Part shown: positions 36,001-48,000 of the stretch, piece by piece
Numbering within the stretch: position 1 is the first letter of the stretch
How the letters are laid out: every line of letters begins with the position of its first letter
Assembly (NCBI GenBank): GCA_964022095.1
Contig: CAXHZO010000014.1
Span: 1 to 57,456 of the forward strand
DNA length: 57,456 nucleotides
DNA from: an uncultured Arcobacteraceae bacterium
GTDB taxonomy: Bacteria; Campylobacterota; Campylobacteria; Campylobacterales; Arcobacteraceae
Direction of reading: 5' to 3'
Position numbers: made by a program

Positions 36001-39000
36001 AACACTTCTATGCCCTGTCATTAAAAATGCAATAATAATTGATATGGCTGCATAATGAGCCACTTCCATTCCAAACAATTCAACGGACATTATCATTGCA
36101 GCAATTGGAGCACTTGTTGCACCTGCTAGGACACTAACAAAACCAATTGCAGCAAATAATGGAATATATCCATTAACTAAATCACCAAAAAAGTTACCAC
36201 TTGCAGCACCCACATAAAATACAGGAGTAATAACTCCCCCACTACCACCAAAACCTAAAGTAAGAGATGTATAAATAGTCTTTAAAATAAATGCATACCA
36301 AGGTATATTTTCATGTATTAATTCATCAGAAGACAATGCATCTTTTATTGTATTAAAACCTAAACCTAAATACTCTTGACCAACAATCATTGTTAGTATT
36401 ACTAATAAGCACCCACCTAAAAAAGCTTTTAATATATAATTTAATTTTATTGAATCAATAAAAGAATGTGTAGTTCTTAAAGTTGTGATAATAAAATCAG
36501 CAACTAGTCCAAAAAATATTCCTCCTAAAACAACTTTTGCTATTAATACATAATTAAAATCTAAATTTGAATAAAATGCAATATAAAAATAGTGATAATC
36601 TATACCAAACATTTGAGCTACAAAATATGCAGAGAATCCTGCAACAATTGAGGGTAATAAAATATCATACATCAATGCACCTACAATAAGTATTTCAACG
36701 CCAAAGATTGCTCCAGCTAATGGTGTTCCAAATACAGATGCAAATCCTGCACTGATACCACAAATTACAATTTTTCTTCTATCTTTATTTGAAAATCTAA
36801 GTTTTGTTGCAATAAATGATGCAGTAGCTGCACCTATTTGAGCTCCTGGTCCTTCTTTACCAACTGAACCTCCTGAAAAGATTGTAATAATCGTTGCTAC
36901 TAATTTAACAGGTATTACTTTTATATCTATTTTCCCAGAGTTTTTATGAATTGCTTCTATAACTTTTTCTGTTCCATGACCTTGAGCACTTGGTGCAAAC
37001 TTTTTAACAATAAACACAGTAAATGCTAAAGCAAAAGGTAGTGTGTAATAATAATCAAAAGGAAGTAAATCCCTTGAAGATTCACAATACTCAAGTAACT
37101 TTAAAAAAAGTGATACAACAGTACCAATTAAAGCTCCAATAATTGAAGATAGAATTATCCATTTTGTAATACTTGCAAATAGTATTGACTGTTCGGCTAG
37201 ATGTTTTTGAATATCTGAGTTTTTTTTCATTTTTATACTTTGTGAGAGAGAAGTTTCTTAAAATGTATTCTAACAAATAATAGTTTTAGCATAACTTCAA
37301 GTTATGCTAAAATTGTAAAAAAATTTAAAAAAAATTACTATCTTATTTTTTCTAGTGCTTCTAAGCAAAGTTGAGTAATTTTATCAAACTTTTTATCTTT
37401 TAATAAATCTTTGGGAACAATCCAACTTCCACCGATGCATAAAACATTTTCAAGCTCTAAAAACTCATTCATATTATCTAAACTAACTCCACCAGTAGGA
37501 CAGAACTTCACTTTAGGAAATGGCCCACCAAAAGCTTTTAATATTTTTGTTCCACCTACTATTGAAGCTGGGAAGAGTTTACAAAAGAAAACATCATAAT
37601 TTTGTGCAAGCATAACTTCACTTGCAGTTGAAACTCCCGGTATTATAGTGATTCCATGGATATGAGAAGCCTCCAATAATTCATGGGAAATCCCAGGAGA
37701 AAAAACAAATTTTGCTCCAGCTTGTTTTGCTTTTACTAAATCAAACTCATTACATACCGTACCTGCTCCAATATTCATTTCGGGAACTTCTTTTGATATA
37801 AGCTCAATTGCTTTTATTCCAGCACTAGTTCTTAAAGTAACTTCCATAATATCAATTCCACCTGCAAGTAATGCTTTTGCTAAATCAACTGCATCATTTT
37901 CATCATCAATTACAACAACAGGAACAATAGGTGATAAACCAATTATCTTATCAATACTCATGATCTCTCCTTTCCAACCAAATCAAATACACTAGCACCC
38001 TCTTCTGCACTTCCTACATTTTGTCTAATGGAACTAAATAACTCTCTACCTAATCCATGTTTATTATCTTCAAAACTTAAGCTCGATTTCTTTCTTTTGT
38101 TTATTTTTTCTTCATCAACTAAAAGTTCTAATTTACCATTTTTAATATCCATTTCAATTAGATCTCCATTTTTTACTTTTGAAATCAATCCATTATCGCT
38201 CGCTTCTGGAGTTAAATGAATTGCACTAGCAACTTTTCCTGAAGCTCCTGACATTCTACCATCAGTTAAAATAGCTACTTTAAAACCTTTATCTTGTAAT
38301 AATCCTAAAGGTGGCATTAGTTTATGAAGTTCTGGCATACCATTTGATTTTGGACCTTGAAATCTTACAATTGCAATAAAATTCTTTTCAAGTTCACCAC
38401 TTTCAAAGGCACTTTGAAGCTCTTCTTGAGATTCAAATACCATTGCTTTTTCCTTAAAATACATCTTATCTTCTTTTAGTGAAGAGGTTTTAATAACACA
38501 TCTTCCTAAATTACCAGTTAATAACTTTAATCCACCCTCTTTTTGAAATGGCTCATTTACTGTTGAAATCACATCATCATTTCTTGAAATTTTAGGACCT
38601 TTTTGAAAGTACACCATATTATTATTACCAATTGTTGGCTCAACAATATAATTATCTAAACCTTTTCCTACAATTGTTTGAACGTCATTATGAACTAAGC
38701 CTGCTTTTAATAATTCACTTATAACTACACTCATACCACCAGCTTCTCTAAAAGCATTCACATCTGCACTACCATTAGGATACATTTTACATAATAGTGG
38801 CGTTACTTTAGAAATTGCATCAAAATCATCCCATGTAAGTATAATTCCAGCTGCTCTTGCCATTGCAATTAGATGTATTGTATGATTTGAAGAACCTCCA
38901 GTTGCCATAAGACCAACAATAGCATTTACAAAACTTTTTTCATCTACAATATTACTAATAGAGATTTTTTCTTGTGTTAGTTGAAGTAAAATTTTTACTG

Positions 39001-45000: not shown

Positions 45001-48000
45001 TTTCATAGATTTTATTATCTACAAAAGCACCAGTAGAATCATTATTACCGTCAATTCCATCACTTCCTGCACAAAGCAGTGATATTTTTTCATTCACAAC
45101 ATTTTGTAAAAGTAATCTTAGTGCTAGTTCCTGATTTCTTCCACCTTTTCCATTTCCTTTAGGAATAGTAGTTGTCTCTCCTCCAAAAAGTAAACAAAAA
45201 GATTCATATTTTTCGTCATATTTCTTTATTGTTTTAGTTATAAACTTTGTTGCATCAACTGAGGGTTTATCTAAAGTTGTGGTAATAATTTTTGTTTTTT
45301 CAACTTTTGATTTAACAAACCTCTTAGCAGCTTTTAGTGCTATTTCATTATTTCCAATAATATGATGCTTAAATTTACCATTATTCATAGGAGCTGAACC
45401 AATAGTATTTATATCATCACCAATTACATCACTTAAAACTAATACTTGTCCCTTTGTTGCACTAATTGTATTTGCTAGTTTTCCACCTTTGATTTGAGAA
45501 ATTGATTTTCTAACACTATTTAAAGCTTTAATATCAATTCCACTTGTAAGTAATGCTTGAGAAATTTTTGTAAAATCATCTAAACTCAATCCTTCAATTG
45601 GTTTTTCAATAACAGCAGAAGCTCCTCCTGATAAAAAGAAGAGAAAATAATCATTTTTTTTGAGTTTATTTACATTATTTAAAAGTTTATCTGCAGCTTT
45701 AATACTTCTTTTACTAACAATTGGGTGTGTTGAAGTATAGTGTTTTATATACTTTAGCTTTCCCTTTGAAGTTGAAATTGCAACGCCACCTTTAATTTTA
45801 TTACCTAAAATATTTTCACACTCTTTAGCCATTGAAAATCCAGCTTTTCCAACACTAAAAATATATAGATTATCGATAGTTTTAAGATCTAATGTTTCAT
45901 TAATGATTTTTAATCTATTTCCATTTAAAGAGATATTATCTCTTACTATACTTTTTGCTTTTACTTTATTTAATGCTTTAAAATAAATTTTTTCTAATAA
46001 CTCTTTAGACATTTTTTAACACCATTTCATTCCAACCTTTCGCACCTTTAAAAGTTGATTTTTGAATATCTTTTGTAGTAAAATCTACATATTCATCATT
46101 ATGATTTTTAATGATTATTGGCAAATCAACTTCTTCAAACATTGCAATATCATTCTCTCCATCACCTAAACCAATAGATATAAGCTTATCATTATAAAGT
46201 TTCTCAAAAATTTCAATAGCTTTTTTAATAGCCATTCCTTTATCTTGATTTTCTCCCATTAAATGATAAAATCTACCACCTTTTGTAATTTTGATTCCAT
46301 ATTTCTTAGCTTCTAATTTAAGTTTTTCAATTAAACTCTCATCTTCAATAATAAAAGGCTCAGTAAAGCCTCTTAATTTTGATAATTCACTTTTTTGTTT
46401 AGATAATCCTGTGTGTAAGCTAACTTCTTCAATACTCATATCACTAAAGCCTTTGATTTTATAACTATCTTTAAACATATTATAAAAATCTAGAATTTCA
46501 TTATATGTTTTTCCTAAAGTATAAATATAATAGTTTTCTAGTTCATCTAAAGAAGATAAATCAAAATTATTATAGTTTTTAGGAAAATAAATTGCAGCAC
46601 CATTTTCGATGATAAAAGGCTCAGTAATTCCTACATCATTTTGAAGTAGTTCAACCTCTGTTTTAGTTTTACTAGTATTAAAGATAAGTGGTATTTTTTT
46701 ATTTAAAAGCACTTGTCTAGCTTCTTTTGATTCGGCAAAAGAGTAGTTATCATGATTCAAAAAAGTTCCATCTAAATCTGTAAATATTAACGTATTCATA
46801 ATTTATGATAGCATTTAATAAACAAAATTCCAAATTGTATATGTATATAAAATATACACATATTTCAATATGTAATATTTTTATTATTAAAAAAGATTTT
46901 TGTGCTAAAATATATCATTAAATAAATATGGGAATTAATTATGAGTATTATAAAAAACGATTTTGAGAAAATGAATATTACTAAAATTAGAAATGCTAAG
47001 AATAATAAAAAACTAACAATGATTACTGCATATGATGCACTATTTTCTAAACTGTTTTCACAAATAGCAGATATGATACTTGTTGGAGATAGTTTAAATA
47101 TGAGCTTTGCTGGCAAACCTGACACACTATCTGCAACACTTGATCAAATGATATATCATACAAATGCAGTTTGTGCTGGTGCTCCTAGTGCTTTTGTAAT
47201 TTTAGATATGCCTTTTGGAACATATAATAATGAAAATGAAGCTTTAGCTAATGCAATTAAAGTATATCAAGAAACAAATGCAGCTGCAGTTAAGATTGAA
47301 GGTGGAGAAGATAGAGCTCATATTATAAAGCATCTAACATCTAACTCAATTGCAGTTATGGGACATATTGGATTAATGCCACAATATGTAAGAAGCGAAG
47401 GTGGATATAAAGTTAGAGGGAAAACAAAACAAGATGAAGAACAACTAATTGCTGATGCAATTGCCGTTGAAAAAGCTGGGGCTTTTGCTATAGTTGTTGA
47501 AGGTGTTATGAGTGATGTAGCTAAAAAAATCACTGATGCAGTTGATGTTCCTATAATTGGAATTGGAGCAGGAAACGTAACAGATGGTCAAGTTTTAGTT
47601 TGGTCTGATATGTTAGGTTTCTTTGAAGATTTTAAACCTAAATTCGTAAGACACTATTTAAATGGCGCGCAGCTTGTAAAAGATGCTGTTAATCAATATA
47701 GAGAAGATGTACAAGATAAATCATTTCCGTCAAAAGATGAAGAGTACTAGAATGTTTAAATTTAAAGGAACACTTTAAAGATGGAAAGAGTAGTTGAAGT
47801 AGAACAAATATCTTTTGAAGAAGACAATAATGAAGTAAGTCTTAGGCCTTCATCTTGGGATGATTATATTGGCCAAGAAAAAATAAAAAAGAATCTAAAA
47901 GTATTTATTGAAGCTAGTAAAAAAAGAGCTGAGGCATTAGATCATATACTTTTTTATGGACCTCCAGGACTTGGGAAAACTACAATTTCCTATTTAATCT

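What a model noticed while it worked through the whole genome (the two positions that open the first line are those of the whole stretch)
37338..46799. Entner-Doudoroff genes fused to a glucosylglycerate synthesis and phosphorolysis operon in a genome without glucokinase [...]
Eight co-oriented, abutting genes join gpgP, glycerate kinase, gpgS and glucosylglycerate phosphorylase to zwf-pgl-edd-eda. With no glucokinase in the genome, the ED pathway here most likely recycles the glucose moiety of the compatible solute glucosylglycerate, not external glucose; this linkage is the rule in Arcobacteraceae.
Evidence so far: Swiss-Prot: GpgS 62% and GpgP 51% to Persephonella, GGaP 45% to characterised glucosylglycerate phosphorylases; gaps of at most 12 bases or overlaps between genes. 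No Glucokinase or ROK family hit. Among 111 family genomes: zwf in 26, of which 22 have gpgS and 17 have it within about 4.2 kb; glucokinase in only 6 of the 26. Searches 80, 189, 190, 202, 203 found no report.
(Added by a program. Inside this text positions count along the whole contig: contig position 1 is position 1 of the stretch shown here. "Call 12" and the like, gene names such as g00115 and contig names such as C1 are that model's own, and its searches are not shown. The text may have been shortened before it was handed on; [...] marks where a part breaks off. The agent that wrote the report below was given it as the finding of a first reader that could run no searches.)

Follow-up and report, generated by a model that had tools for sequence, protein, structure and literature searches.

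The report
Nitrogen-controlled glucosylglycerate make-and-burn operon
A marine Arcobacter-family bacterium with no recognisable way to take in glucose keeps a glucose-burning pathway in one operon with the genes that make and dismantle its own nitrogen-free stress solute, behind a DNA motif shared with its nitrogen-starvation genes, which suggests the pathway recovers stored carbon and does not feed on outside sugar.

Summary
The eight-gene operon is real: gpgP-glycerate kinase-gpgS-glucosylglycerate (GG) phosphorylase-zwf-pgl-edd-eda, with one terminator. The genome shows no glucokinase, ROK kinase, Pfk, Gnd, gluconokinase or glycogen genes, so Entner-Doudoroff (ED) is the only oxidative exit found for glucose-6-phosphate. 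In 151 family genomes, 33 of 37 with zwf have gpgS and 25 have them in one operon, usually with galU, pgi and sometimes pgm. Among Pfk-less genomes zwf occurs in 17 of 18 with gpgS and 3 of 67 without. Corrections: glucokinase is in 17 of 37 zwf genomes, always with a phosphorylase-kinase-like GH15 protein, Pfk and glycogen phosphorylase; linkage is a majority among ED genomes, largely one clade, not a family rule. New here: a palindrome TGTATA-N5-TATACA precedes gpgP in 24 of 24 linked relatives at fixed spacing from a -10 element; six of its eight perfect copies in this genome precede nitrogen-assimilation genes. Best reading: a nitrogen-limitation GG cycle with ED as its sink (0.6). Main rival: ED as a concurrent NADPH or overflow cycle (0.22). 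No expression or flux data.

The parts
46842..46858 (.). Palindromic box TGTATA-N5-TATACA, shared with nitrogen-assimilation genes; inferred activator site
46805..46810 (-). -10-like hexamer with TG extension, 31 nt after the box and 5 nt before the gpgP ATG; no Shine-Dalgarno, so an inferred leaderless transcript
   Evidence: start site not measured
46005..46799 (-). gpgP, glucosyl/mannosyl-3-phosphoglycerate phosphatase family (264 aa)
   Evidence: TIGR01486 207 bits, cut-off 165
44855..46012 (-). MOFRL-type glycerate kinase (385 aa)
   Evidence: PF13660+PF05161; PDB 2b8n E 5e-67; glycerate 2-kinase models below cut-off
43642..44853 (-). gpgS, glucosyl-3-phosphoglycerate synthase (403 aa)
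   Evidence: NF040724 E 3e-96, 322 bits, below cut-off 700; gene context
41888..43645 (-). GH13_18 glucosylglycerate phosphorylase (585 aa)
   Evidence: TETN and loop-A YE motifs; 43% to E. coli YcjM
40412..41875 (-). zwf, glucose-6-phosphate dehydrogenase (487 aa)
   Evidence: TIGR00871 578 bits, cut-off 401
39778..40422 (-). pgl, 6-phosphogluconolactonase; likely start is the ATG at 40422 or 40419 after AGGAG, not the TTG at 40446
   Evidence: TIGR01198 162 bits, cut-off 124; junction sequence
37958..39781 (-). edd, phosphogluconate dehydratase (607 aa)
   Evidence: TIGR01196 928 bits, cut-off 708
37338..37961 (-). eda, KDPG aldolase (207 aa)
   Evidence: TIGR01182 254 bits, cut-off 156
37284..37312 (-). 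13-pair hairpin after eda, terminator-like; marks the operon end
   Evidence: z -3.1 against shuffles, 2 of 200 as stable
25439..26839 (+). PMM/PGM-family mutase outside the operon; one of two candidates for the G1P to G6P step (the other is on contig C21 beside galU and pgi)
   Evidence: both below the PgmG cut-off

Best explanation
The operon is a nitrogen-limitation carbon-store cycle. When nitrogen is short, an activator bound at the box (candidate: a 250-aa Fis-HTH/degenerate AAA+ protein encoded next to glnD) turns on one transcript. GpgS and GpgP make GG from UDP-glucose and 3-phosphoglycerate supplied by gluconeogenesis; GG stands in for nitrogen-containing solutes (the genome also encodes ectoine synthesis). 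When GG is no longer needed, the phosphorylase splits it with phosphate into glucose-1-phosphate and glycerate. Glycerate kinase returns glycerate to lower glycolysis; a mutase gives glucose-6-phosphate, which Zwf-Pgl-Edd-Eda turn into pyruvate and GAP. No free glucose arises, so no glucokinase is needed. Shown: gene content, order, motifs, box, absences. Inferred: enzyme activities, co-transcription, nitrogen control, regulator identity, direction and timing of flux.
For: No Glk, ROK, Pfk, Gnd, GntK, glycogen phosphorylase/synthase in G000; the only PfkB hit is ThiD and the only alpha-amylase-family hit is this phosphorylase. PckA, Fbp, Tkt, Pyk and EctABC are present. Relatives add galU, pgi and sometimes pgm to the same operon. 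Pfk-less genomes: zwf in 17 of 18 with gpgS, 3 of 67 without; 12 of 13 gpgS genomes lacking zwf have Pfk. Glycogen phosphorylase without gpgS goes with zwf in only 1 of 15. Linkage recurs outside the family in other gene orders (L098, L105, L109, L117). Box before gpgP in 24 of 24 linked relatives, in 0 of 10 unlinked family zwf genes, background 31 of 2359 genes; six of eight perfect copies precede nitrogen genes. GG is reported to accumulate under nitrogen starvation (passages of PMC11009771; abstract of PMC5381378).
Against: One promoter would induce synthesis and breakdown together, whereas in M. hassiacum the degrading enzyme rises on nitrogen resupply (abstract). 12 of 25 linked genomes also have Pfk, so ED is kept where it is not the only exit. 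24 of 25 linked zwf form one clade, so the family counts are close to one event (quick tree). In an order-wide sample 9 of 12 Arcobacter-type zwf genomes outside the family had gpgS but none adjacent. Three Pfk-less zwf genomes have no gpgS. G000 lacks the operon-type Pgm; its two mutases are below cut-off. The box is weak or missing in most linked loci outside the family. An internal promoter before zwf is not excluded (one search is at chance level).
Confidence: 0.6

Rival explanations
1. ED runs at the same time as GG synthesis in nitrogen-limited cells, as a cycle on gluconeogenic glucose-6-phosphate that yields NADPH for nitrate/nitrite assimilation and glutamate synthesis or dissipates excess carbon. 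The link to GG is co-regulation, and GG recycling is minor.
For: The nitrogen box precedes the whole operon; the genome has nitrate, nitrite and urea assimilation genes under the same box; no Gnd, so Zwf flux must leave by Edd; linked ED persists in 12 Pfk-bearing genomes.
Against: The box occurs in family genomes without gpgS (one search lists matches in genera with no gpgS) that have no zwf; unlinked zwf genes lack the box (0 of 10 family, 0 of 15 order); zwf tracks gpgS, 33 of 37.
Confidence: 0.22
2. The catabolic half scavenges GG (or a related glucoside) released by other microbes, imported by an unrecognised carrier.
For: G000 has five TRAP binding proteins of unassigned substrate and one weak GPH-family symporter (92 bits, cut-off 231); E. 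coli ycjM lies beside an ABC importer.
Against: No transporter in any of the 25 linked operons; no tblastn hit to YcjN/O/P or to a relative's sugar ABC proteins; synthesis genes share the operon.
Confidence: 0.08
3. ED catabolises outside glucose or gluconate through a kinase or transporter of an unrecognised type.
For: Some family ED loci do sit with mannitol/fructose import and a PfkB kinase (G006, G105), so the pathway can serve imported carbon. Only part of G000's 83 predicted multi-pass membrane proteins were annotated.
Against: No Glk, ROK, sugar-type PfkB or GntK; A. anaerophilus IR-1 is reported with ED, without hexokinase and without growth on glucose, fructose or sucrose (passages of PMC4584990; its genome was not examined here).
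Confidence: 0.05
4. The phosphorylase works towards GG synthesis and the ED genes are passengers that landed between galU and pgi.
For: The reaction is reversible; galU-pgi are adjacent without ED in G000 (C21) and in some gpg operons (L103, L113, L125).
Against: ED lies upstream of gpgP in L105 and L117 and stays with the gpg genes in G000 and G018 after galU and pgi are gone; a glycerate kinase in the operon would drain the acceptor.
Confidence: 0.05

Closest known systems
GG gene cluster with GH13_18 glucosylglycerate phosphorylase (Meiothermus silvanus, Spirochaeta thermophila, E. coli YcjM; reviewed in PMC7178133, passages seen)
   Same: Phosphorylase with (T/S)ETN and loop-A Glu, beside glycerate kinase, gpgS and gpgP; proposed as the sink for GG.
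   Different: Here the downstream fate of the glucose-1-phosphate is encoded in the same operon (ED, plus galU/pgm/pgi in relatives) and a nitrogen-regulon box precedes it. The review says the in vivo role is unconfirmed. 0 of 42 gpgS loci outside Campylobacterota had ED genes in the DNA held.
Campylobacter glc locus (glcP pgi2 glk pgl zwf edd eda; PMC5118423 and PMC11801493, passages seen)
   Same: ED genes clustered in a Campylobacterota genome that lacks Pfk.
   Different: No glcP or glk; different gene order; zwf only about 40% identical to the host-associated-type enzymes of family f25; input is inferred to be an internal glucoside.
Mycobacterial GG accumulation and GG hydrolase GgH (PMC5381378, abstract seen)
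   Same: GG tied to nitrogen starvation and consumed on recovery.
   Different: Hydrolysis to free glucose by a separately induced enzyme there; phosphorolysis, co-transcribed with synthesis, here.
NtrC-type nitrogen regulons (general knowledge)
   Same: Palindromic site before glnA, amtB-glnK, urea and nitrate genes; candidate regulator has a Fis-type HTH and a weak sigma54-activator match.
   Different: Different motif, sigma70-type -10 at 31-32 nt, and a 250-aa candidate without a receiver domain.

Membership tests
GH13_18 glucosylglycerate phosphorylase (GGaP) | (T/S)ETN motif at beta-strand 5 | tested here: met
   IITETNVP in the window protein and relatives; feature from PMC7178133
GH13_18 glucosylglycerate phosphorylase (GGaP) | Glu in loop A in place of Gln | tested here: met
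   PYELN, aligned to PYEIN of YcjM
GH13_18 glucosylglycerate phosphorylase (GGaP) | Neighbours gpgS, gpgP, glycerate kinase | tested here: met
GH13_18 glucosylglycerate phosphorylase (GGaP) | Phosphorolysis of GG and no activity on sucrose | not testable with these tools
   A sucrose-active GG phosphorylase exists (PMC11009771); not distinguished here
Two-step GG synthesis (GpgS/GpgP) | GpgS-family synthase | tested here: inconclusive
   Best NCBIfam hit is GpgS (E 3e-96) but 322 bits is under the 700 cut-off; no Pfam or PDB hit
Two-step GG synthesis (GpgS/GpgP) | HAD-IIB GPG/MPG phosphatase | tested here: met
   TIGR01486 over cut-off; the model does not separate glucosyl from mannosyl
Two-step GG synthesis (GpgS/GpgP) | GG accumulates in cells | not testable with these tools
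   no metabolite data
Entner-Doudoroff pathway | Intact zwf, pgl, edd, eda | tested here: met
   all four over NCBIfam cut-offs
Campylobacter glc locus | Glucokinase in the locus | tested here: not met
   none in the genome
Campylobacter glc locus | Glucose permease GlcP | tested here: not met
   none in the operon; no tblastn hit with the permease from the glk-pgi ED locus of G384 (its identity as GluP-type is my reading)
Campylobacter glc locus | Position inside an rRNA operon | tested here: not met
   flanked by a ClC channel gene and panB
Canonical NtrC/sigma54 regulon | Activator with receiver, AAA+ and HTH domains | tested here: not met
   candidate shows only HTH_8 and a 50-residue weak Sigma54_activat match; that it is the box-binding protein is unproven
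Canonical NtrC/sigma54 regulon | Induction under nitrogen limitation | not testable with these tools
   inferred from the genes that carry the box

The most novel reading that the evidence does not exclude
Free-living Campylobacterota use ED as a disposal module for internally stored glucose, not for feeding: coupled to GG through the phosphorylase, or to glycogen through a bacterial homologue of the phosphorylase-kinase alpha/beta subunit plus glucokinase. In Arcobacteraceae the GG-ED version belongs to an undescribed nitrogen regulon (TGTATA-N5-TATACA, sigma70-type activation, leaderless gpgP) run by a receiver-less NtrC-like protein encoded beside glnD.
Probability: 0.4. Interest if true: 0.78.

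Novelty: new variant of a known kind. Interest (0 to 1): 0.63.

Why it matters
It offers a reason why asaccharolytic Arcobacters carry ED without a hexose kinase, and gives a tractable system for a question a 2020 review calls unresolved, the in vivo role of GG phosphorylase. It points to GG as a nitrogen-free solute in Campylobacterota (the search for glucosylglycerate with Arcobacter returned 0 papers), warns against inferring glucose use from ED genes in these genomes, and supplies a candidate motif and regulator for nitrogen control in this family.

Tried and rejected
Expression: no RNA holder listed; one run of uncertain type laid, scattered short contigs only, no information. Family-wide search for box plus -10 plus ATG used a wrong gap (35-55 nt, true 31-32) and says little. 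Within the window alone the box is not above chance (1 match, 0.55 expected); its weight comes from the genome-wide and cross-genome tests. The promoter scan was at chance level (64 against 66). Sucrose phosphorylase and glucosylglycerol phosphorylase were rejected on motifs. Recent horizontal gain into G000 is not indicated: GC3 of the eight genes is 0.10-0.18 against 0.141 +/- 0.026. The careful zwf tree did not finish; the quick tree with three long outgroup branches was used only for the large linked clade. Literature searches that found no report of the linkage: 10 papers, listing only; 29, 20 listed; 0; 1, listing only; of the motif or regulator: (21, 15 listed, listing only); of the bacterial PhK-like enzyme: (0). 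Franceus 2017, Costa 2007, Klaehn 2010 and Pallen 2003 were seen only as citations and may show gene-context figures that bear on novelty; no supplements were read. Earlier scan findings were not available.
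Full report
Observation. The window is contig C14 of genome G000 (2.57 Mb, 31 contigs, 99.99% complete). The closest named gpgS relatives are Arcobacter and Halarcobacter records at 82-86%, which places it in or next to Arcobacteraceae. Eight minus-strand ORFs run from 46799 to 37338. NCBIfam assigns zwf, pgl, edd and eda above cut-off, gpgP to the MPGP/GPGP family above cut-off, and gpgS and glycerate kinase to the expected models below cut-off. Junctions are -8, +1, -4, +12, an overlap, -4 and -4 nt. A 13-pair hairpin follows eda. The 585-aa GH13 protein has the TETN motif and the loop-A Glu that a review gives as the marks of GG phosphorylases (passages of PMC7178133) and is 43% identical to E. 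coli YcjM.

What could feed ED in this genome. Family searches found no glucokinase, ROK kinase, phosphofructokinase, 6-phosphogluconate dehydrogenase or glycogen phosphorylase. The gluconokinase model hit only shikimate kinase and the PfkB model only ThiD. The only alpha-amylase-family match is the phosphorylase itself. tblastn with relatives' glycogen synthase, GH57 enzymes, KdgK, PpsA, sugar ABC proteins and a permease from a glk-bearing ED locus found nothing. PTS was not searched with a family model. Of 83 predicted multi-pass membrane proteins I annotated only those raised by three transporter-family searches and by inspection: efflux MFS, acetate symporters, iron and molybdate binding proteins, five TRAP binding proteins and one weak GPH-family symporter. 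Gluconeogenesis (PckA, Fbp), Tkt, Pyk and ectoine synthesis are present; a mutase-galU-pgi cluster lies on C21 and a second mutase at window 25439-26839. So glucose-6-phosphate is most likely home-made, ED is the only oxidative exit found, and GG is the only storage glucoside found.

Family survey (151 genomes including G000, drawn from a larger group). zwf 37, gpgS 46, phosphorylase 46 plus one weak unrelated hit, glucokinase 20, Pfk 66, glycogen phosphorylase 40. 33 of 37 zwf genomes have gpgS. Gene maps of all 36 relatives show 24 with zwf in the gpg operon; G020 is split at contig ends and was not counted; two are cut by a contig end inside edd, one lacks glycerate kinase and one has zwf only. 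In 23 of the 24 galU lies between the phosphorylase and zwf, and pgi, sometimes with pgm, usually follows eda. Among 85 Pfk-less genomes zwf is in 17 of 18 with gpgS and 3 of 67 without; among 66 Pfk-bearing genomes in 16 of 28 and 1 of 38; 12 of 13 gpgS genomes without zwf have Pfk, the exception being 86% complete. Against a strong reading: kin are not independent, 24 of the 25 linked zwf proteins form one clade (SH-aLRT 98, quick tree), and 12 of the 25 also have Pfk. Unlinked loci have other partners: mannitol/fructose import (G006, G105), glycerol genes (G027, G084), or glucokinase (G130, G133, G142); G015 and G080 keep eda with kdgK and transporters elsewhere.

Glucokinase. These are exactly the 17 genomes that carry a roughly 1060-aa GH15+KPBB_C protein homologous to phosphorylase kinase alpha/beta, and all 17 have Pfk and glycogen phosphorylase; none of the 20 glucokinase-less zwf genomes has either. 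In 80 loci from the genome collection this protein has glk beside it in 51, and ED genes in 9 of the 40 loci closest to the query. Glucokinase here therefore looks like the partner of an intracellular glucan hydrolase, not of a permease; the activity is inferred, and the human subunit showed none in vitro despite intact catalytic Glu residues (passages of PMC10978961).

Beyond the family. Of 38 Campylobacterota-labelled gpgS loci, 15 hold zwf; nine of these are labelled outside Arcobacteraceae (L094, L095, L097, L098, L105, L109, L110, L111, L117; L107 left out because its map repeats a family locus), some with ED upstream of gpgP or with pyk, pgm, glk or the GH15 gene inserted. None of 42 loci from other phyla holds ED genes; many loci are short. 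In an even sample of 261 genomes of the order, 12 outside the family had this type of zwf, 9 of them gpgS, and none adjacent. Linkage is thus recurrent but a minority state outside the family.

A nitrogen-regulon box. Aligning by eye the DNA upstream of gpgP revealed TGTATA-N5-TATACA. In G000 it occurs perfectly 8 times, all between genes, against 0-3 for other spacer lengths. Six copies precede urtA, the urease operon, a regulator-glnD pair, a formate/nitrite transporter-cyanase-nirB run, amt-PII and glnA; the others precede gpgP and an Opr porin. One-mismatch copies precede a second amt-PII, the nitrate ABC and NarK genes and the urea-carboxylase ABC, among others unrelated to nitrogen (29 in all). 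The box precedes gpgP in 24 of 24 linked relatives (18 perfect, 6 with one mismatch) and in 7 of 8 other gpg operons, but none of 10 unlinked family zwf genes or 15 order zwf genes; background is 31 of 2359 genes. Outside the family only L094 and L095 of eight linked loci with upstream DNA keep it within one mismatch. In 30 of 33 promoters a TAnnnT hexamer starts 30-32 nt after the box and ends 5-7 nt before the ATG, with no Shine-Dalgarno; the same 31-32 nt spacing holds at glnA, both amt genes, nrtA and urease but not at urtA or the nitrite transporter, against 6.9% at random. In five other genomes perfect boxes numbered 21, 6, 11, 0 and 0 (reversed-pattern controls 3, 1, 6, 0, 0), with copies before glnA, amt and a nifA-like gene. 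A 250-aa Fis-HTH protein with a degenerate AAA+ part sits before glnD with a box of its own; homologues exist in the three box-rich genomes, not in G010 (no boxes), but also in G346 (no perfect boxes). It is a candidate only.

Mechanism. Under nitrogen shortage the cell replaces nitrogen-bearing solutes with GG, as reported for other bacteria. The same transcript supplies the breakdown route: GG + Pi gives glucose-1-phosphate and glycerate; glycerate kinase and a mutase plus ED bring both halves to pyruvate and triose phosphate without free glucose. I put this at 0.6. Because synthesis and breakdown genes share the box, direction must be set after transcription, or ED runs concurrently as an NADPH or overflow cycle (0.22); the two are not exclusive. 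Import of GG (0.08), hidden glucose use (0.05) and accidental linkage (0.05) are less likely.

Comparison and novelty. The gpgP-kinase-gpgS-phosphorylase cluster and the ED pathway are each known. The Campylobacter glc locus has glk and glcP, which are missing here (passages of PMC5118423 and PMC11801493). ED without hexokinase and without growth on glucose was noted, unexplained, for A. anaerophilus IR-1 (passages of PMC4584990). Searches turned up no report of the linkage, of GG in Arcobacter or of the box; the library lacks most subscription papers. Verdict: a new variant built from known parts, with a testable mechanism and a candidate nitrogen regulon; interest 0.63.

Noticed in passing
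L059:1847-6108 (G130), L189, L192, L261-L340: A bacterial homologue of phosphorylase kinase alpha/beta (GH15+KPBB_C, E 1e-194 to the human alpha subunit) has glucokinase beside it in 51 of 80 loci (Campylobacterota, Methylococcaceae), often near glycogen or ED genes; suggests an active glucose-releasing glucan hydrolase. Absent from G000.
   Followed up: partly
G000 C13:29161-29913 (L231:7162-7914): 250-aa Fis-HTH/degenerate AAA+ protein before glnD, with a perfect box upstream; candidate regulator of the nitrogen box.
   Followed up: partly
window 10656-21066: Low-GC (about 21%) operon with PelF glycosyltransferase over cut-off, a TPR protein and a Spherulin4-family hydrolase: a probable pel-type exopolysaccharide locus.
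   Followed up: partly
L355, L408, L416, L417, L461, L462: The same box/-10/leaderless ATG layout precedes a KefB/KefC-like CPA2 antiporter in six other Campylobacterota records; the G000 orthologue (C15:20403) lacks a good box.
   Followed up: partly
L466: The same promoter layout precedes a gene whose N-terminus looks like RpoN in a Sulfurimonas record (my recall, not scanned).
   Followed up: no
G000 C3:100494 onward; L255 (G130): An 857-aa protein has a two-mismatch box in G000, and a protein with a similar N-terminus and no NCBIfam hit has a perfect box in G130: a possible unnamed member of the nitrogen regulon.
   Followed up: no
L218 (G134:C22:470000-488000): A complete glycogen cluster (GH57 branching enzyme, GlgA, short 549-aa alpha-glucan phosphorylase, pgm, pfk, gap); the phosphorylase is in 40 of 151 family genomes.
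   Followed up: partly
relatives' operons, L031-L055: Two different glycerate kinases (about 385 aa, 65-79% to G000; about 430 aa, 31-34%) and two Pgi types (about 400-420 and 545-550 aa) are exchanged within an otherwise fixed operon.
   Followed up: no
L056, L068 (G006, G105): ED genes behind a mannitol/arabitol ABC importer, dehydrogenase and fructokinase, followed by an aldehyde dehydrogenase (GapN-like) and pyruvate kinase: apparent polyol catabolism in Arcobacteraceae.
   Followed up: no
window 35821-37230: ClC-family channel gene directly downstream of the terminator in G000; not present at this place in G018 or other relatives.
   Followed up: partly
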